From an uncultured Gammaproteobacteria bacterium (GTDB lineage Bacteria; Patescibacteriota; Microgenomatia; Levybacterales; UBA12049): DNA of 24,495 nucleotides. The stretch spans positions 1-24,495 of the forward strand of contig CAZPZA010000001.1 in the NCBI GenBank assembly GCA_964590985.1, read 5' to 3'. A program made the position numbers and the translations under genes. Below, piece by piece: positions 8,066-24,495 of this stretch (the first letter of the stretch is position 1; each line of letters begins with the position of its first letter). Under the pieces are notes generated by a model. It worked only from the letters and a program-made list of their open reading frames with translations, was not told the origin of the DNA and made no database searches.

Positions 8066-8647
8066 CTAACCAGACATATCTAAAACCGATTTTAGAGCGA
8101 TTGGGAGTTTGGTTATACCGTAAGCTTTATTGAAATGACCCATGTTATGCTTAACAACAATTTTTGACCCAAGTTTATCCTTAAAATCGTCCTGATTGTC
8201 TAATGGTACATACGGGTCATTATCGGAAAAGATTGCAATACTTTTAGGAAGATGAGACTTAACTTTGTGTAAATCAAGAGGCGCTTCAAGCCAATGTCTG
8301 TCGGTTTCTGCAGCGCCTGGTTCATTTTCAAGCCCAGTTAATCTTTTAAAAAATCCAGCAACAAAAACAGCCCCTCCCACCAGCACATTCTTAGAAAGAG
8401 ATTCAAGATACCTCGCAATTGTTTGACATCCCAAGCTATGTCCAACAAAATAAGCTTGTTTGTTAGCAGTGCCGACCGCATTGGACAAAGCAGGAACCCA
8501 CTTGTAGATTCTTGGGTTATCTGCATCGGGGAGTTGGGGAACATAAACCTCAAAGCCTTTCTTTTCTAATTCTTTTTTGAGCCACGGAAACCAATTTTCT
8601 TTTGGATGCCCATCCCAACCATGCACTATAAAAACCGTCTTTTTCAC
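8066..8647 (-). CDS. Alpha/beta hydrolase, RBBP9/YdeN family
   Basis: VFIVHGW, nucleophile elbow GHSLG, SDNDPYV, GHF. The true start is probably GTG 8647; the ORF-track extension is translated tRNA. Confidence 0.9.
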   Translation of the reverse strand: MKKTVFIVHGWDGHPKENWFPWLKKELEKKGFEVYVPQLPDADNPRIYKWVPALSNAVGTANKQAYFVGHSLGCQTIARYLESLSKNVLVGGAVFVAGFFKRLTGLENEPGAAETDRHWLEAPLDLHKVKSHLPKSIAIFSDNDPYVPLDNQDDFKDKLGSKIVVKHNMGHFNKAYGITKLPIALKSVLDMSG

Positions 8648-8649
8648 AG

Positions 8650-8732
8650 TGGGCAAGGAGGGAGTCGAACCCTCACAGCCTTGCGACCAGTAGTTTTTGA
8701 GACTACCGCGTATACCATTCCGCCACTTGCCC
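8650..8732 (-). tRNA. tRNA-Leu(CAA), CCA not encoded
   Basis: GGGCAAG/CTTGCCC acceptor stem, GGAATGGTA D-loop, GTAGT-CTCAAAA-ACTAC anticodon arm, long variable arm, GAGGG-TTCGACT-CCCTC T-arm. Confidence 0.97.
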
Positions 8733-8762
8733 AAAAGCCTTGTTTATTATATACTTTCTTTT

Positions 8763-9725
8763 ATGACCATTCAAGAAATCTACGATTTAGCGGTTGCAAT
8801 GGGCGTAAAAGCCGATCCTAGGGGAGAGGAGGCAGTTAAAAATCTTCTTGCCCGCACCAAAAAAGACTATAGAGAATTGTCAGAAAAGAAAAAGAAATAT
8901 TTTGACAAAGAATCTTTTAAAAATCCTTATTCAGACTCTCGCATATTGGTTGGCAACCCAAAAATGGTTGTTAAAAAATTAATGGCTGGAATTGATGGCG
9001 ATGCGTCGGAAATACTCCTTGCGGATCGGCTAATTCAAAAAGGAGAAAGAATTGATTTGGTAATATCTCATCATCCAAGTGGACACGCTCTTGCGAGTCT
9101 ATATGAGGTTATGGATATCCAAATTGATCTTTTTGCAGAAGCAGGAGTTCCAGTAAATGTTGCCTCTGCGCTCTTTGAGGAAAGAAAGGCAGCGGTTCGA
9201 AGAAGACTTAATCCACTTAATCACACACAAAGCGTGGATGCTGCTAGGCTTCTGAATATTCCTCTTTTGGCTCTTCATACTATTTGGGATAATCTTGGTC
9301 ATAAATTTATGGAAAAGTATCTTACAAATAAAACTTTTGATACAGCTGGTGATGTTTTGGACTATATTAATGAAATACCGGAATTTCAAGAGGCAATAAG
9401 AGGGAAAAATAGTCCATTTATTGTTGCCGGATCCGAGAAGAGGAGGGCTGGAAAAGTGGTGATTGGTTTTACAGGAGGCACAAGCGCTTCAAAAGAGCTA
9501 TATTTAGAAATGGCAAAGGCAGGGGTTGGGACAATTGTTGAAATGCATGTACCAGAGGAATCGGTTCTTGAACTTAAAAAAGCTACTCACATAAATGTTA
9601 TTGACTGTGGACACATGGCAGCAGACTCTATTGGCGCTAATTTGTTTTTGGACGAGATTGAAAAGAGAAATATAGAAGTTGTTCCATGCTCTGGACTTAT
9701 ACGAGTTAGGAGATTTGATACATAA
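8763..9725 (+). CDS. NIF3 (NGG1p-interacting factor 3)-like protein
   Basis: MTIQEIYDLAV...DPRG, NPYSDSRIL, ISHHP, HTIWDN, VEMH, GHMAADSIG; start moved to ATG 8763 (TATACT 7 nt upstream). Confidence 0.8.
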   Translation: MTIQEIYDLAVAMGVKADPRGEEAVKNLLARTKKDYRELSEKKKKYFDKESFKNPYSDSRILVGNPKMVVKKLMAGIDGDASEILLADRLIQKGERIDLVISHHPSGHALASLYEVMDIQIDLFAEAGVPVNVASALFEERKAAVRRRLNPLNHTQSVDAARLLNIPLLALHTIWDNLGHKFMEKYLTNKTFDTAGDVLDYINEIPEFQEAIRGKNSPFIVAGSEKRRAGKVVIGFTGGTSASKELYLEMAKAGVGTIVEMHVPEESVLELKKATHINVIDCGHMAADSIGANLFLDEIEKRNIEVVPCSGLIRVRRFDT

Positions 9726-16900: not shown

Positions 16901-17410
16901 ATGGAACCTTCTTCTCTTCCATCAGGAGACTTTGTCGCTGGTCTAACAGATGGCGAAGGATGTTTTGCATTAAAGTTTCGTCGTGACTTTAAAAAGAACC
17001 GGCCCAATTCTCCTGTCTACTTCGGTTGGCAGTCCGCTTTTATTATTACCCTTCGAAAAGACGACTTTCCTTTATTGCAGAAAGTTAGACAAGTGGTCGG
17101 ATGTGGAACAATCACTATCTCAGGGAATTCTGTTAGTTTTCAGGTTCAAGATACGGATGAGCTTCTCAATATCATTGTTCCATTTTTTACTCGTTATAAG
17201 CTTCATGGAAAGAAATCGGAAGATTTCAAGTTATGGGTAGAGGCAGTGAAATTAATAGCTTCTAACAAAAAGCGAAATGTAAATGTTCAAAGAGGAGTAC
17301 GGGGCTTTATCAAAGTTAATTGGAAAAAAGAAGATCTTTTACGTTTAAACGAAATCCGTAAGGATATGAGGGTATATAAAGCTGCTCATTCTCCTTTTAA
17401 ATGGGATTAA
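16901..17410 (+). CDS. Single-motif LAGLIDADG homing endonuclease, free-standing
   Basis: DFVAGLTDGEGCF, IIVPFFTRYKLHGKKSEDFKLW; 169 aa, homodimeric class. Confidence 0.92.
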   Translation: MEPSSLPSGDFVAGLTDGEGCFALKFRRDFKKNRPNSPVYFGWQSAFIITLRKDDFPLLQKVRQVVGCGTITISGNSVSFQVQDTDELLNIIVPFFTRYKLHGKKSEDFKLWVEAVKLIASNKKRNVNVQRGVRGFIKVNWKKEDLLRLNEIRKDMRVYKAAHSPFKWD

Positions 17411-21659: not shown

Positions 21660-23156
21660 CTAATGCTGATTACTCAAATTATCAATGACCATTGCTGCTA
21701 CTTCAACATCGGTAATTAAATTTATTCCCATATTCACAGAAATTTTTCTAATCAACTTTCCATCAGTAAACTCCTTGCCCTCTTTAATCTTATCTCTGGT
21801 TGGAATGTTGACGACAAGGTCAAAAACCTTTCTTTGTAAAAGATCGGCAATATTTGGGTTTTTGCCTCCTTCAGAGATTTTGTAGACAAGAGATGTAGGT
21901 ATTCCATGTTCTTTCAAAAATCTATGTGTTTTTTCGGTAGTATATAGAATGACATTTGAGTCTCTTGCCAAGTTTTTGATATGAGGCAGTAAAAATTTTT
22001 TATTTTTAATTTTCCCAATTGTCAATAAAACATGTGTTTTTTTCTGACTTAAGATTGCAGCTTGTCCATACCTTGATTTGCTCCAGTCTTCTGTTTGAGT
22101 ATTGAGAAGTGAAAAAATAGAAACATTTCTAATATCTTTTTCAGCAAAAATGTATTGCAGTACCCTTTCATTTCCAATGCCATAACCAGCGTGCGGATTA
22201 GTAGAATTTTGCTCTATAATATCTAGATACCATTTAAAATCTTCGTATTTACCTCCTCGCATTATATGTAGTTGATACATGGTGGAGGTGATTAATCGGC
22301 TATTGAGTTTTTTGAAATCATGCTCGCGAACCGATGCTCCTGTTCCCTCTCCGGCATAAGGAAAAATTAAATCTGCAGATAACACCACTCTCTCATCTTT
22401 AGTATAAACCTTCATGTTGAAAAACTTAATTTCTTTGGGATATTTCATGATAAACACCGGCAACTCCCCATTTTTTTTATTAAGGAGTTCAACAATTTTT
22501 GCCTCGTGTTTAGTTTTTAAATCATCACCAAATTTAACTTCTGGATAACCGTTGCTATTTAAAAGTTTTATTGCTGATTCATACTCGATTCTTAAAAAAT
22601 TTTTTATTGTTGTTTCAGTTAGTCTATCTACATTTCTTTTGTAAACCTTTCTTAAAATCTCCTCACGATCTATTAGCACTTTTTTAATCATGGACTGCAC
22701 TGTTTTTTGAATACTATTAAGCAAAGCTCCATACATTTGATCTTCGTCATAGTTTTCCCTTGTAAGACCAGTAAGTGTGCAGTCAAACTCTTCTTCTGTA
22801 AGCCTGAATTGTCTAAGATGTCTTTCATCTTCTTTGTCCTCATCGCGGCCCGAATGAATAATAGTGTATACAGCTGGCAATGACTGGAGTGCTTGTTCGA
22901 GAGCAAGTTGGCCTGTTTGGGTAAAAAATAGCGGTAGATCAAGACGATTGCCTACCTTAAAAAGAGTATCAACATTCTCACAAGCGCCTGTAATGCCTAC
23001 TATTTGGGGTACATCGACATATACTCTTCCTCTTTCTTGATAGCTTTCGTGGGCGCCTTGGTTTAGACTTTGGTTAACATTTATTAAATTTAGGAAATGA
23101 TCATCAAAATCTAAAGCGAGCCTTTTTCCTTCGGCACAAAGAGAAATTTTTTTCAT
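21660..23156 (-). CDS. AsnRS/AspRS-like class IIb catalytic core (no anticodon domain) fused to a CarB-type MGS domain
   Basis: FFTQTGQLALE, motif-2-like SGRDE...RHLRQF, FIMKYPKEIKFFNMK, SADLI..GE..GAS.RE, motif 3 PHAGYGIGNERV; C-terminal VLLTIG...TTEKTHRFLKEHGI...DLVVNIPT...DGKLIRK...ITDVEVA. Confidence 0.85.
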   Translation of the reverse strand: MKKISLCAEGKRLALDFDDHFLNLINVNQSLNQGAHESYQERGRVYVDVPQIVGITGACENVDTLFKVGNRLDLPLFFTQTGQLALEQALQSLPAVYTIIHSGRDEDKEDERHLRQFRLTEEEFDCTLTGLTRENYDEDQMYGALLNSIQKTVQSMIKKVLIDREEILRKVYKRNVDRLTETTIKNFLRIEYESAIKLLNSNGYPEVKFGDDLKTKHEAKIVELLNKKNGELPVFIMKYPKEIKFFNMKVYTKDERVVLSADLIFPYAGEGTGASVREHDFKKLNSRLITSTMYQLHIMRGGKYEDFKWYLDIIEQNSTNPHAGYGIGNERVLQYIFAEKDIRNVSIFSLLNTQTEDWSKSRYGQAAILSQKKTHVLLTIGKIKNKKFLLPHIKNLARDSNVILYTTEKTHRFLKEHGIPTSLVYKISEGGKNPNIADLLQRKVFDLVVNIPTRDKIKEGKEFTDGKLIRKISVNMGINLITDVEVAAMVIDNLSNQH

Positions 23157-23170
23157 GTCGCTGGGATTTT

Positions 23171-23199
23171 AGTTTATAGATCTTATTATTTTTTGTCAA
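23171..23199 (-). promoter_or_regulatory. Promoter of the AsnRS-like-MGS gene
   Basis: TTGACA (23199-23194)-17-TAAACT (23176-23171); ATG 14 nt downstream. Confidence 0.7.
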
Positions 23200-23285: not shown

Positions 23286-23321
23286 CCGATATGGGATCGG
23301 AATAGCTATGCCGAAGCGGTA
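23286..23321 (-). repeat. REP-like family A diverged copy overlapping the pyrC stop codon
   Basis: Minus strand TACCGCTTCGGCATAGCTATTCCGATCCCATATCGG aligns without gaps to 7980-8015. Confidence 0.75.
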
Positions 23322-24495
23322 ATAATTTTCCCAAATCCTTCTTTTGCGAGGATTTTTCCGTTTTCAAAGACTTTTTTTCCACGAATAAAAACTCTCACAA
23401 CTTTTCCTTTTACCTTCATTCCCTCAAATGGTGACCAACCACACTTCGTAAATAAGGATGAATTATGAATGATGAATGATGAATTAAGATCTACTTCGGT
23501 ATAGGTTTCCTTATCAACTTTAATTCCAAAAATTTTTGCAGGGTTTGTGTGGCAGAGACGAATGATATCACTAAGTGTTAATCTTTTCTCAGAAACTGCG
23601 GTTAGTAAAAGTGGAAGGGTTGTTTCAAAACCAGGAACTCCAAAAGGTGGAAGAATCTGCGGGTCCTGGCGGGCTTTACCCCCGTCCGACATCCTCAGTC
23701 GCTTTGCTCCCTGCGGTTGCTCGACGGGGTCCCCCGCGCCCGCCACCCGCATAGTTTTTCCCACTTTTTCCGCAATTGTATGGGGGGCGTGGTCGGATTC
23801 GACAACGTTAATATATTTTAAATTTTCCCACAAAAACTCTACATCTTTTTTACTTTGCAAAGGTGGTCTCATTTTTCCAAAAGGACCAAGGATTTTTGCA
23901 TCTTTTTCATTCAAAAATAAATGATGAGGAGTTACGCCACAGGTTATTGGAAGGCCTTGTTCTTTGGCATGTATGATCATTTTAAGTTCAAAAGCTTGAC
24001 TTATATGACAAAAATGAGTCGGTGTTTTTATTTTTTTAACTACATTTATTACATCTTCAATTTTCTTCCCTTCTGCATGTACAAGTATCGGTTTTACGTT
24101 TTTCGTCGAAAGTATACTACTATGTAGTGCTATACTTTGGAACGCGTTTAACCAAGCGGTAAATATACTCTCTAAGATGTTTTTCTGAACAATAAAGTTT
24201 CCAGTAGTTTGATTAAGATATAATTTAAGTCCCATTACTTTATCTTTTACTTTTCTGAATTCATCGAGATTGTCACCCATTGATCCAAAGTAAAATCCTA
24301 CGTCGCAGACAATTTTTTTCTTGGCAATTTTTATTTTTTCATTTAATAATTTTGAAGTTGTAACAGGGACTTTGTTGTTCGGCATGTCAAAGATTGTGGT
24401 AAAACCTCCGGCAAGCGCGGCGCAAGTTCCGGTATAAAAATCTTCTTTGTGAGTCTGCCCCGGATCGCGTAAATGAACATGAGGATCAATAAGGC
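23306..24495 (-). CDS. pyrC: Dihydroorotase (runs off the right edge)
   Basis: The frame is open beyond the ORF-track start: LIDPHVHLRDPG...AALAGGFTTIFDMPN; also VHAE, CHIS, CGVTPHHL, SDHAPH, FGVPGFET, CGWSPF. Confidence 0.93.
   Translation of the reverse strand, partial: LIDPHVHLRDPGQTHKEDFYTGTCAALAGGFTTIFDMPNNKVPVTTSKLLNEKIKIAKKKIVCDVGFYFGSMGDNLDEFRKVKDKVMGLKLYLNQTTGNFIVQKNILESIFTAWLNAFQSIALHSSILSTKNVKPILVHAEGKKIEDVINVVKKIKTPTHFCHISQAFELKMIIHAKEQGLPITCGVTPHHLFLNEKDAKILGPFGKMRPPLQSKKDVEFLWENLKYINVVESDHAPHTIAEKVGKTMRVAGAGDPVEQPQGAKRLRMSDGGKARQDPQILPPFGVPGFETTLPLLLTAVSEKRLTLSDIIRLCHTNPAKIFGIKVDKETYTEVDLNSSFIIHNSSLFTKCGWSPFEGMKVKGKVVRVFIRGKKVFENGKILAKEGFGKIITASA
23456..23483. repeat. Heptamer array (GGATGAA TTATGAA TGATGAA TGATGAA) inside pyrC
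   Basis: Encodes (NS)SFIIHNSS just before LFTKCGWSPF. Confidence 0.7.
23658..23751. repeat. 94-bp GC-rich palindromic element, in-frame in pyrC
   Basis: Nested arms TGCGGG/CCCGCA, TGGCGGGC/GCCCGCCA, CCCCGTC/GACGGGG; 68/94 G+C by hand count. Confidence 0.85.
24109..24139 (-). repeat. REP-like family B copy, in-frame in pyrC
   Basis: 30/31 identical to 1135-1165; encodes QSIALHSSIL. Confidence 0.9.

What the first reader, a model, noticed from the sequence alone, without database searches (positions are those of the whole stretch)
21660..23156. tRNA-synthetase paralogue (AsnRS-like core) fused to a CarB-type MGS allosteric domain, adjacent to pyrC
Seen: about 370 aa of class IIb core with motif 2/3 arginines but no N-terminal OB anticodon domain, followed by a ~125-aa MGS-like domain (about 21663-22040). 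Established: anticodon-less AsnRS paralogues in archaea act as ammonia-dependent asparagine synthetases via beta-aspartyl-AMP, and the CarB MGS domain senses UMP/IMP/ornithine. I do not know this fusion as characterised. Inference: an aspartate-adenylating enzyme under nucleotide allosteric control that may partition Asp between Asn and pyrimidine synthesis. More speculatively it could be an ATP-driven ligase acting on carbamoyl-aspartate. Caveat: it has its own promoter, so linkage to pyrC may be incidental.
Basis: partly seen in the sequence, partly recalled or inferred. Interest (0 to 1): 0.75.

Follow-up and report, generated by a model that had tools for sequence, protein, structure and literature searches.

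The report
AsnRS-derived ligase in pyrimidine operons
This gene encodes an uncharacterised enzyme built from the catalytic half of asparaginyl-tRNA synthetase plus the regulatory domain of carbamoyl-phosphate synthetase; in ultra-small Patescibacteria it sits directly in front of, or is fused to, dihydroorotate dehydrogenase, so it probably takes part in an unconventional way of making pyrimidines.

Summary
ORF 21660-23156 (minus strand, 498 aa) is an AsnRS-type class II catalytic core without the OB anticodon domain, fused to a CarB-type MGS domain. It is not an assembly artefact: hundreds of full-length homologues at 64-82% identity exist in Patescibacteria. The pyrC adjacency is peculiar to this window, but the link to pyrimidine genes is strong. 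In 45 fused-form loci PyrD follows immediately on the same strand in 20-22 (median gap 1 nt) and is fused in frame in others, with PyrE and PyrF after it. The same MGS subtype is also attached to argininosuccinate synthase and to dihydroorotase in these lineages. CarA, CarB and PyrB were never seen on a contig carrying this gene (0 of 85), although they exist in related organisms. The catalytic and Asn-pocket residues of AsnRS are all retained. My best reading is an AMP-forming ligase that helps build dihydroorotate just upstream of PyrD under nucleotide control. The exact reaction is unresolved. The family is uncharacterised and worth testing experimentally.

The parts
21660..23156 (-). Whole gene: AsnRS-like catalytic core + linker + MGS domain, 498 aa (stop codon 21660-21662)
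22077..23156 (-). Class IIb (AsnRS-type) catalytic core, residues 1-360. An N-terminal beta-hairpin takes the place of an OB domain
   Evidence: Pfam tRNA-synt_2 E 2.2e-31. AF2 model pLDDT 92.5. Foldseek top 24 hits all AsnRS, 1x54 E 1.3e-26, rmsd 2.9 A over 332 columns
23001..23027 (-). Motif 1 region (RVYVDVPQI, P50 conserved)
22974..22991 (-). TGACEN loop with invariant E60, which aligns with the conserved Glu of canonical AsnRS (assigned to the substrate alpha-amino group from my own knowledge of class IIb enzymes)
22896..22919 (-). QTGQLALE: Q80/Q83/L86/E87. From my own knowledge L86 occupies the position of the AspRS side-chain Lys, so the pocket is AsnRS-type
22788..22859 (-). Motif 2 (IHSGRDEDKEDERHLRQFRLTEEE): R104, E106, R112, H113, F117, E121, E123 invariant. 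Family-specific G103, D105, D110
22323..22373 (-). D262...E270...R277-E278 segment (acidic residues and side-chain-pocket Arg), shared with AsnRS
22155..22193 (-). Motif 3 (HAGYGIGNERVLQ) with R331
22041..22076 (-). Flexible linker, residues 361-372 (pLDDT below 50 at 365-370)
21663..22040 (-). MGS-like, CarB-type allosteric domain, residues 373-498. Conserved T378, K386, T407, T410, K426, N450, T453, D465-G466, R470
23171..23199 (-). Sigma-70-like -35/-10 match upstream of the start codon (consensus match only)
23306..24495 (-). Upstream neighbour pyrC (dihydroorotase), runs off the window end. HxH, carboxylated-Lys and DHAPH motifs present. 50% identical to the PyrC of a CarA-CarB-PyrB-PyrC cluster (L134) and 42% to a PyrC-MGS fusion (P0223)

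Best explanation
The protein is a catalytically competent, tRNA-independent, AMP-forming ligase derived from AsnRS. It works in the dihydroorotate-forming part of de novo pyrimidine synthesis in Microgenomates-type Patescibacteria, immediately before dihydroorotate dehydrogenase. Shown: an intact adenylation site and an AsnRS-type amino-acid pocket; no anticodon domain; tight operon coupling and in-frame fusion to PyrD (and PyrE); a CarB-type effector domain that these lineages also attach to argininosuccinate synthase and to dihydroorotase. Inferred: as in every characterised anticodon-less AspRS/AsnRS paralogue (AsnA, archaeal AS-AR, SlgZ), it adenylates the beta-carboxylate of an aspartyl moiety and hands it to a nitrogen nucleophile. 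In a pyrimidine setting that bond is N3-C4 of the ring. The most economical version is an ATP-driven closure of N-carbamoyl-aspartate, or of an argininosuccinate-derived equivalent, to dihydroorotate, replacing or reinforcing the reversible dihydroorotase step. The carbamoyl-aspartate may come from the co-operonic pair ArgG-MGS plus PRK06886-type amidohydrolase, acting on citrulline and aspartate. The MGS domain would bind a phosphorylated effector (UMP or IMP type) for feedback control, or help assemble the MGS-tagged enzymes into one complex. I put membership in this pathway segment at about 0.65 and the specific ring-closing chemistry at about 0.3.
For: Active enzyme: motif 1 P50, motif 2 R104/E106/F117, acidic D262/E270 and motif 3 R331 are invariant across 78-97 diverse family members. 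AsnRS descent: best models and structures are AsnRS; Foldseek top 24 hits are all AsnRS; pocket residues E60, Q83, L86, E121 and R277 are the AsnRS set. Pathway link: among 45 fused-form loci from GTDB genomes, PyrD matched in 22 (immediately downstream on the same strand in 20, opposite strand in L001, three genes upstream in L059), plus in-frame fusions in L003 and L033; PyrF in 20; PyrE in about 21, counting both types. Median stop-to-start gap to PyrD is 1 nt over 21 loci, 19 fused-form plus L038 and the broken L064, with 9 overlaps. Fusion proteins: core+MGS+PyrD of 807, 833 and 845 aa, and core+MGS+PyrD+PRTase of 1129 and 1134 aa. Complete operon in L087: ArgG-MGS, PRK06886 amidohydrolase, core-MGS-PyrD, PyrF, PyrE, next to a purine operon; L009, L011 and L102 are similar. 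L038 adds a DDAH/ADI-type citrulline-forming enzyme and an aspartase/fumarase. No CarA, CarB or PyrB-like gene on any of 85 contigs carrying the gene, against 9 of 75 ArgG-MGS contigs without it (Fisher p 0.0008 with an anchoring caveat). PyrC is on only 1 of the 85. The MGS domains on the core, ArgG and PyrC are 39-49% identical to each other and 30-34% to CarB's own, with the putative phosphate-site residues conserved. Precedent chemistry: AsnA forms beta-Asp-AMP then an amide (PMC5370406); SlgZ is an AsnRS-like enzyme tailoring 3-methylaspartate (PMC5357945).
Against: No biochemical data exist, and the substrate cannot be read from sequence. The window itself has a canonical-looking PyrC next door, which would make a ring-closing ligase redundant there. 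The non-CPR sister paralogues in Psychrobacillus, Glycomyces and a third isolate are also paired with a DHOase-like gene. The commonest ArgG-MGS operon (ArgG-MGS, PRK06886, PyrD, PyrE, PyrF; at least 13 loci) lacks this gene altogether, so it is either encoded elsewhere or dispensable. Thirty-five core-only relatives at 52-72% identity mostly show no pyrimidine context. The conserved E60, which I read as the alpha-ammonium-binding Glu of AsnRS, argues for a substrate with a free alpha-amino group (Asp or Asn) rather than N-carbamoyl-aspartate. Absence of CarAB and PyrB was assessed only within 10 kb flanks, not across whole genomes, and within the ArgG-anchored set alone the exclusivity is not significant.
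Confidence: 0.4

Rival explanations
1. AMP-forming N-carbamoyl-L-aspartate synthetase. The enzyme replaces CarAB plus PyrB by amidating the carbamate of N-carboxy-aspartate (Asp + CO2 + NH3 + ATP), or by an equivalent carbamoyl-adenylate route. A DHOase-type amidohydrolase then closes the ring.
For: It explains the adjacency to a canonical PyrC in the window and the stable pairing with DHOase-like genes in three non-CPR genomes. It explains why CarA, CarB and PyrB are never on the same contig. In L129 and L120 the slot after ArgG-MGS and PRK06886 is filled by CarA-CarB, while in L009 and L087 it is filled by this gene. It explains why the gene carries CarB's regulatory domain as the committed, regulated entry step.
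Against: I know of no class II aaRS-fold enzyme that adenylates a carbamate. It would make the ArgG-MGS/PRK06886 module redundant in the six-gene operons. It is not the step next to PyrD, although fusion and coupling are with PyrD. PyrC is absent from 84 of 85 loci.
Confidence: 0.2
2. AsnA-type, ammonia-dependent asparagine synthetase whose activity is tuned by pyrimidine or purine nucleotides through the MGS domain. The pyr-operon location would reflect co-regulation of aspartate-consuming enzymes.
For: All known anticodon-less AspRS/AsnRS paralogues amidate an aspartyl beta-carboxylate (PMC5370406, PMC5357945). The full AsnRS-type pocket, including the conserved E60, is retained. Core-only relatives stand alone among housekeeping genes or next to LysRS. 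ArgG, another Asp-consuming enzyme, carries the same domain.
Against: It scores far below the asparagine synthetase A models (59 against 368 bits), has no Pfam AsnA hit, and 3p8t is not among the top 50 structural matches. It offers no rationale for translational coupling and repeated in-frame fusion to PyrD and PyrE. The distance tree suggests core-only forms are secondary losses from a fused, pyr-linked ancestor (no support values).
Confidence: 0.2
3. Non-catalytic regulatory or scaffolding subunit, in the manner of HisZ for HisG. It would sense an amino acid and a nucleotide and control PyrD or PyrE, or assemble the MGS-tagged enzymes.
For: aaRS paralogues can be regulatory (HisZ, from my own knowledge). 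The protein is fused to PyrD and a PRTase. The MGS domain is shared by three pathway enzymes.
Against: Every residue needed for ATP binding and adenylation is invariant over a wide divergence, which is not expected for a purely regulatory paralogue.
Confidence: 0.05
4. A minimal AsnRS that still charges tRNA-Asn, or another RNA, without an anticodon-binding domain.
For: Very close conservation of AsnRS active-site residues, including motif 2 loop R112/H113. Automatic pipelines label it asparaginyl-tRNA synthetase.
Against: No OB domain. Scores half the asnS cut-off (180 against 342.6). Operon and fusion partners are metabolic, not translational. Distribution is patchy rather than universal.
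Confidence: 0.03

Closest known systems
Archaeal asparagine synthetase A (AS-AR, Pyrococcus 'AsnRS2', PDB 3p8t/1nnh) and bacterial AsnA
   Same: Class IIb catalytic core without an anticodon-binding domain. A tRNA-independent adenylate-forming enzyme. This is the likely kind of chemistry: beta-aspartyl-AMP plus a nitrogen nucleophile.
   Different: Only a weak match (3p8t E 7e-5 over residues 247-348; NCBIfam 59 bits against a cut-off of 368). The present family is nearest to true AsnRS, which suggests a recruitment separate from AS-AR. From my own knowledge of the AS-AR papers, which I could not read here, AS-AR is reported to descend from AspRS. The present family also carries an MGS domain and sits in pyr operons.
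Canonical asparaginyl-tRNA synthetase (e.g. P. horikoshii 1x54, T. thermophilus 5zg8/9sh8)
   Same: Fold (rmsd 2.5-3.0 A over ~332 columns), motifs 1-3, and the Asn-type pocket residues L86, E121 and R277.
   Different: No OB anticodon domain. Family-specific switches F to G103, A to D105, T to D110, Y to N247, G to N61. A C-terminal MGS domain. A metabolic gene context.
SlgZ, the AsnRS-like tailoring enzyme of streptolydigin biosynthesis
   Same: A bacterial AsnRS-like protein used as a metabolic enzyme on an aspartate derivative rather than for translation (PMC5357945).
   Different: It belongs to secondary metabolism, and no MGS domain or pyrimidine link is reported. The primary paper was not available, and I had no SlgZ sequence to compare.
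CarB / CPS1 C-terminal allosteric (MGS-like) domain
   Same: Same domain family (Pfam MGS). Best solved match is the human CPS1 allosteric domain. Positions aligning with the effector-phosphate site are conserved.
   Different: It is attached to a completely different catalytic module. It forms a distinct subfamily shared with ArgG and PyrC of the same lineages, 39-49% identical among themselves and 30-34% to the local CarB. The effector is unknown.
Dihydroorotase (PyrC)
   Same: If my preferred reading holds, the net reaction is the same: N-carbamoyl-aspartate to dihydroorotate, feeding PyrD.
   Different: Unrelated fold and mechanism: an ATP-driven adenylate rather than a reversible Zn-dependent dehydration. 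The functional analogy is inferred only.

Membership tests
Class II aminoacyl-tRNA synthetase catalytic core, subclass IIb (Pfam tRNA-synt_2) | Profile match above the curated cut-off | tested here: met
   109.5 bits against a cut-off of 25, residues 21-349
Class II aminoacyl-tRNA synthetase catalytic core, subclass IIb (Pfam tRNA-synt_2) | Motifs 1, 2 and 3 with the motif 2 and 3 arginines | tested here: met
   P50; R104/E106/F117; G324-G328/R331 invariant
Class II aminoacyl-tRNA synthetase catalytic core, subclass IIb (Pfam tRNA-synt_2) | Antiparallel-sheet class II fold | tested here: met
   AF2 model pLDDT 92.5. Foldseek top 50 hits are all AsnRS or AspRS, probability 1.00
Asparaginyl-tRNA synthetase proper (asnS, EC 6.1.1.22) | N-terminal OB-fold anticodon-binding domain | tested here: not met
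   No tRNA_anti-codon hit. The asnS models align only from position ~130
Asparaginyl-tRNA synthetase proper (asnS, EC 6.1.1.22) | Score above the NCBIfam equivalog cut-off | tested here: not met
   TIGR00457 180 bits against 342.6; NF003037 170.5 against 414
Asparaginyl-tRNA synthetase proper (asnS, EC 6.1.1.22) | Asn-type specificity residues (non-basic residue at the AspRS Lys position; Glu at the AspRS Asp233 position) | tested here: met
   L86 and E121 invariant. The assignment of the AspRS positions rests on my own knowledge
Asparaginyl-tRNA synthetase proper (asnS, EC 6.1.1.22) | Charges tRNA-Asn | not testable with these tools
   Needs an aminoacylation assay
Asparagine synthetase A (archaeal AS-AR type, NCBIfam PRK06462 models; bacterial AsnA, Pfam AsnA) | Profile match above the cut-off | tested here: not met
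   Best 59.3 bits against a cut-off of 368. No Pfam AsnA hit at E up to 0.1
Asparagine synthetase A (archaeal AS-AR type, NCBIfam PRK06462 models; bacterial AsnA, Pfam AsnA) | Anticodon-less class II core acting without tRNA | tested here: inconclusive
   The architecture fits. tRNA independence is inferred, not shown
Asparagine synthetase A (archaeal AS-AR type, NCBIfam PRK06462 models; bacterial AsnA, Pfam AsnA) | Asp + NH3 + ATP gives Asn via beta-aspartyl-AMP | not testable with these tools
   Needs an enzyme assay or complementation of asnA asnB
MGS-like domain / CarB allosteric domain | Profile match above the cut-off | tested here: met
   PF02142 48.9 bits against 24.1. CarB models match at positions 934-1050. 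2yvq E 4e-6
MGS-like domain / CarB allosteric domain | Effector (UMP/IMP phosphate) binding residues | tested here: inconclusive
   K386, T407, T410, K426, N450 and T453 align with the CPS1 T1391/T1394 region and with E. coli K954, T974, T977, K993, N1015 and T1017. The E. coli landmark sequence and residue roles came from memory, and binding is untested
De novo pyrimidine operon member | Conserved adjacency, co-orientation or fusion with pyr genes across divergent genomes | tested here: met
   PyrD matched in 22 of 45 fused-form loci, at +1 on the same strand in 20. Fusions with PyrD or PyrE in at least 5 distinct proteins. PyrF in 20 and PyrE in about 21
HisZ-like regulatory aaRS paralogue | Loss of catalytic residues with retention of ligand sensing | tested here: not met
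   All adenylation residues are invariant

The most novel reading that the evidence does not exclude
Microgenomates-type Patescibacteria make dihydroorotate by a route that needs no carbamoyl-phosphate synthetase, aspartate transcarbamoylase or dihydroorotase. Citrulline, made from arginine by a DDAH/ADI-type enzyme, and aspartate are joined by an MGS-tagged argininosuccinate synthase. A PRK06886-type amidohydrolase converts argininosuccinate to a ureido or cyclic intermediate and releases ornithine. The AsnRS-derived ligase closes or drives the N3-C4 bond with ATP and hands dihydroorotate directly to a fused or coupled PyrD. All MGS-tagged enzymes answer to one effector. This would be a new pyrimidine pathway and a new catalytic use of an aaRS core.
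Probability: 0.3. Interest if true: 0.92.

Novelty: new variant of a known kind. Interest (0 to 1): 0.8.

Why it matters
De novo pyrimidine synthesis is regarded as one of the most invariant pathways in biology, and CPR/Patescibacteria are usually described as unable, or only partly able, to make nucleotides. This is a widespread, strongly conserved enzyme family (about 65-70% identity across candidate phyla) that databases label only 'amino acid--tRNA ligase-related protein' or, wrongly, 'asparaginyl-tRNA synthetase'. It sits exactly where the missing early steps should be and is fused to PyrD. If it is a pathway enzyme, metabolic reconstructions of thousands of CPR genomes under-call pyrimidine autonomy. 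It would also add a new reaction to the short list of metabolic jobs taken over by tRNA-synthetase cores, and it would show the CarB allosteric domain acting as a portable regulatory cassette placed on at least three other enzymes. Even the conservative outcome, a nucleotide-regulated Asn synthetase, would be a new regulatory design. The hypotheses are directly testable by complementation of standard E. coli auxotrophs and by simple adenylation assays.

Tried and rejected
1. Assembly chimera or lost stop codon: rejected, because hundreds of full-length two-domain homologues exist.
2. The pyrC adjacency as the general rule: rejected. It is 1 of 46 fused loci, and the closest relative L174 has an unrelated upstream gene.
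3. 'These lineages lack CarAB and PyrB altogether': rejected. My first motif scan (STRTR, EFDYSG) on set 1 found nothing. The ArgG-anchored set then revealed CarA, full-length CarB with its own MGS domain, and ATCase-like genes with a variant EPSSRTF motif that the regex had missed. I re-probed with real sequences.
4. The Berkelbacteria neighbour as AsnRS, which would have supported Asn supply: rejected. It is a class IIb synthetase with LysRS hallmarks.
5. First AF2 model from 21 near-identical sequences: pLDDT 67 with the core below 50, so it was discarded. It was replaced by a 78-sequence model. Coordinates are not exposed, so no pocket geometry was possible.
6. Cluster-member look-up for names or taxa of distant paralogues: uninformative.
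7. Literature searches for the fusion, for CPR pyrimidine variants and for AsnRS paralogues: nothing specific except SlgZ. The primary SlgZ paper is not held.
8. Own promoter as evidence against operon linkage: the site is a consensus match no more frequent than in shuffles.
9. Reading the substrate from conserved residues: this cannot separate normally bound Asn from flipped Asp or an N-substituted Asp, so I left it open.
Full report
OBSERVATION. The ORF at 21660-23156 on the minus strand encodes 498 aa. Pfam finds tRNA-synt_2 at residues 21-349 (E 2.2e-31) and MGS at residues 399-482 (E 7.2e-13), both well above their curated cut-offs. The NCBIfam asnS models align only from model position ~130 onward, at 170-180 bits against cut-offs of 342-414. 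So the OB anticodon-binding domain is missing and the protein is not an equivalog of AsnRS. The C-terminal ~125 residues match the last ~115 positions of the CarB models. The best solved relatives are AsnRS for the core (1x54, E 3e-27) and the human CPS1 allosteric domain for the C-terminus (2yvq). The upstream same-strand neighbour is a dihydroorotase. It runs off the window end and has its HxH, Lys and DHAPH motifs.

NOT AN ARTEFACT. The capped protein search returned 642 hits. The best 120 are all ~495-527 aa proteins with both domains at 64-82% identity. The few that are named come from Patescibacteria (Levyibacteriota and unclassified members) as 'amino acid--tRNA ligase-related protein', and JGI labels them 'asparaginyl-tRNA synthetase'. 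A scan of one genome per GTDB species found relatives in 156 species. The named ones are Roizman-, Levyi-, Gottesman-, Beckwith-, Woese-, Ames-, Falkow-, Nomura- and Uhrbacteria. Several MAGs carry labels such as 'uncultured Gammaproteobacteria' that do not fit their Patescibacteria-type gene content. Mean column identity over 21 members is 71%.

TWO FORMS. Of 80 non-redundant loci, 45 encode the fused form and 35 a core-only form of ~340-385 aa that is 52-72% identical over the core. Three of the 35 (L025, L062, L064) are split, broken or contig-truncated fused genes. A neighbour-joining tree, without support values, places fused sequences at the base of the CPR clade and scatters core-only forms among fused ones. 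For example L037 is sister to the window protein and L038 is sister to L013. This suggests an ancestral fusion with repeated loss of the MGS domain.

CONTEXT OF THE FUSED FORM. I called ORFs mechanically and clustered them, so gene starts are approximate. PyrD matched in 22 of the 45 fused-form loci. It is the next gene downstream on the same strand in 20, and it is fused in frame in L003 and L033. PyrF is present in 20. PyrE-type PRTases of two kinds are present in about 21. The median gap between the stop codon and the PyrD start is 1 nt over 21 loci, with 9 overlaps. Fusion proteins in the databases include core+MGS+PyrD (807, 833 and 845 aa) and core+MGS+PyrD+PRTase (1129 and 1134 aa). Core-only loci mostly lack such context. 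The exception is L038, which has the full set.

PARTNERS WITH THE SAME DOMAIN. A ~540-aa protein recurs upstream. It is a bona fide argininosuccinate synthase (507 bits against a cut-off of 334) with a CarB-type C-terminal domain. It forms its own conserved family at 75-84% identity in the same lineages. It is almost always followed, often with overlapping stop and start codons, by an amidohydrolase of the uncharacterised PRK06886 family (508 bits against 340), whose nearest named relatives are cytosine deaminases. A dihydroorotase-MGS fusion (P0223) is 42% identical to the window's PyrC. The MGS domains on the core, ArgG and PyrC are 39-49% identical to each other but only 30-34% to the MGS domain of CarB from related organisms.

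AN INDEPENDENT SAMPLE. Eighty metagenome loci anchored on ArgG-MGS show PRK06886 in 59 of the 64 with room for it. A DDAH/ADI-type gene lies between them in 18. PyrD is present in at least 40. The commonest arrangement is the five-gene operon ArgG-MGS, PRK06886, PyrD, PyrE, PyrF, in at least 13 loci. The AsnRS-like gene appears in only 5 of the 80, placed just before PyrD where it lies within the operon (L102, L154). Nine loci instead carry CarA, a full-length CarB with its own MGS domain, or ATCase-like genes with an EPSSRTF variant motif, and three of them also carry PyrC. Canonical genes therefore exist in the group. They were never on a contig with the AsnRS-like gene: 0 of 85 against 9 of 75, Fisher p 0.0008. 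The two sets are anchored differently, and within set 2 alone the difference is not significant. In L129 and L120 the slot after PRK06886 holds CarA-CarB. In L009, L087 and L102 it holds the AsnRS-like gene. L038 and L134 add an aspartase/fumarase.

THE ENZYME ITSELF. I compared 41 fused, 30 core-only and 12 distant paralogues with 8 canonical AsnRS-type sequences. The family keeps every residue shared by AsnRS for ATP and amino-acid binding: P50, E60, Q83, L86, E87, R104, E106, R112, H113, F117, E121, E123, K244, D262, E270, R277, H322 and R331. It differs at a few conserved positions: G103, D105, D110, N247, N61 and T81. With a 78-sequence alignment AlphaFold gives pLDDT 92.5 and pTM 0.76, with a disordered linker at 365-370. 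Foldseek's top 24 hits are all AsnRS, followed by AspRS, and the archaeal AsnA structure is not in the top 50. The protein is therefore an active adenylating enzyme descended from AsnRS. From my own knowledge of the AS-AR literature, archaeal AsnA is reported to descend from AspRS, which would make this a separate recruitment.

OUTSIDE THE CPR. Distant core-only paralogues at 38-44% identity occur in Psychrobacillus, Glycomyces and a third isolate. There they lie inside a syntenic cluster that looks biosynthetic: epimerase, BioD-like ATPase, aminotransferase, two unknown ~470-485-aa paralogues, ATP-grasp and NUDIX. In each case the core is directly followed by a 452-466-aa DHOase-family amidohydrolase. 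In a complete Berkelbacteria genome the core-only gene precedes a LysRS-like gene, with PyrF, PurB and PurC a few kb away.

INTERPRETATION. It is shown that this is a conserved, catalytically intact, anticodon-less AsnRS derivative. It carries a CarB-type effector domain and is embedded in, and often fused into, the PyrD-PyrE-PyrF part of pyrimidine operons. Those operons usually lack CarAB, PyrB and PyrC, and often contain ArgG-MGS and PRK06886 instead. It is inferred that the enzyme supplies PyrD with dihydroorotate. By precedent (AsnA in PMC5370406; SlgZ in PMC5357945) the chemistry should be adenylation of an aspartyl beta-carboxylate followed by attack of a nitrogen. In the pyrimidine ring that bond is N3-C4. 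Gene order (ArgG-MGS, amidohydrolase, this gene, PyrD) is colinear with this scheme: citrulline + Asp gives argininosuccinate, which gives carbamoyl-Asp + ornithine, then an ATP-driven closure gives dihydroorotate, then orotate.

The main difficulties are these. A normal PyrC sits next to the gene in this very window. The non-CPR paralogues are paired with DHOase-like genes. Many five-gene operons lack the gene. The conserved E60, the counterpart of what I take to be the alpha-ammonium-binding Glu of AsnRS, is retained. These points favour the rivals. One rival is an AMP-forming carbamoyl-aspartate synthetase that replaces CarAB and PyrB and feeds a DHOase. The other is a plain Asn synthetase under nucleotide control. 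Sequence analysis cannot decide among them. I give pathway membership about 0.65, the ring-closing version about 0.3, carbamoyl-Asp synthesis 0.2 and Asn synthetase 0.2.

NOVELTY. No paper in the held library describes the fusion, the MGS-tagged ArgG, or a variant pyrimidine route in these organisms. As an aaRS-core paralogue turned metabolic ligase it belongs to a known kind. The AsnRS origin, the CarB-domain fusion and the pyrimidine-operon role make it a new variant. If the wider pathway idea is right, the system as a whole would be new.

Noticed in passing
L093-L096, L100, L101, L103, L167 (e.g. L093 10001-11602 onward); also L086, L087, L088: A compact operon of ArgG-MGS, PRK06886-type amidohydrolase, PyrD (class 1A), PyrE and PyrF recurs in at least 13 metagenome loci without CarAB, PyrB, PyrC or argH. 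ArgG-MGS and the amidohydrolase are usually translationally coupled. This suggests a citrulline- and aspartate-dependent route to dihydroorotate that does not need the finding's gene.
   Followed up: partly
window 23651-23752 (minus strand, inside pyrC): An in-frame 34-codon insertion (MRVAGAGDPVEQPQGAKRLRMSDGGKARQDPQIL) that is absent from three PyrC orthologues. It is 64% GC against 35% in the flanks and folds as a long hairpin (-61.7 kcal/mol, z -4.4). It has a single copy in the window and no Rfam match. It may be a small palindromic insert or foreign DNA.
   Followed up: partly
L134 9628-10599; L143 4808-5749 (minus strand); L145, L133, L169: ATCase-like genes in Patescibacteria carry EPSSRTF in place of the canonical STRTR carbamoyl-phosphate motif, while HPTQ and HPLPR are kept. 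A strict motif scan misses them.
   Followed up: partly
18 ArgG-MGS-anchored loci, e.g. L134 6626-7462, L138 2268-3086; also L038, gene at -2: A DDAH/arginine-deiminase-superfamily gene (PF19420 E 1.9e-14 for the L038 copy, with a C-terminal GGGINC motif) sits between ArgG-MGS and the amidohydrolase in 18 of 80 loci. An aspartase/fumarase-type lyase is nearby in 8. These would supply citrulline and aspartate.
   Followed up: partly
L089 1913-13496; L090 2800-13210; L172 803-12456: A syntenic cluster in Psychrobacillus, Glycomyces and a third isolate contains an epimerase, a BioD-like ATPase, an aminotransferase, two paralogous ~470-485-aa proteins without Pfam hits (CDHNCT and FGGSPE motifs), an ATP-grasp, an AsnRS-like core, a DHOase-like amidohydrolase and NUDIX. 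It looks like an uncharacterised biosynthetic gene cluster.
   Followed up: partly
P0126 residues 1-456; P0136 residues 1-490: Two ~820-860-aa proteins carry the AsnRS-like core at the C-terminus, behind a long N-terminal region with no Pfam or NCBIfam match.
   Followed up: no
L013 3721-4782; L024 11410-12489; L011 11472-13391; L016 11495-13348: A second, divergent PyrD-like type of 353-374 aa has an N-terminal extension, scores only ~72 bits on DHODH models, and is sometimes fused to a PRTase (617-639 aa). It follows the AsnRS-like gene about as often as class 1A PyrD does.
   Followed up: no
window 16901-17410 (+): A LAGLIDADG homing-endonuclease ORF (E 1.5e-20) has no detectable intron or rRNA around it: Rfam at gathering thresholds finds only one tRNA in the window.
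   Followed up: no
window 8649-8732 (-): tRNA-Leu(CAA) is the only RNA gene found. It overlaps the ends of two mechanically listed ORFs (8066-8734 minus strand, 8697-9725 plus strand), so their real starts are probably shorter.
   Followed up: no
L006, L009, L012, L022 and others (record titles): Many MAG records that carry this Patescibacteria-type gene and neighbourhood are titled 'uncultured Gammaproteobacteria', 'Pseudomonadales', 'Polyangiaceae' or 'Sulfotelmatobacter'. These taxonomic labels look wrong.
   Followed up: no
L173 against L086: The two loci share a syntenic backbone (L17-L13-S9, RecA-RecX-RNase Y, HU, ABC transporter, IPPT, Mg chelatase). One carries the core-only AsnRS-like gene before HU. 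The other carries ArgG-MGS plus the amidohydrolase after the transporter genes.
   Followed up: no
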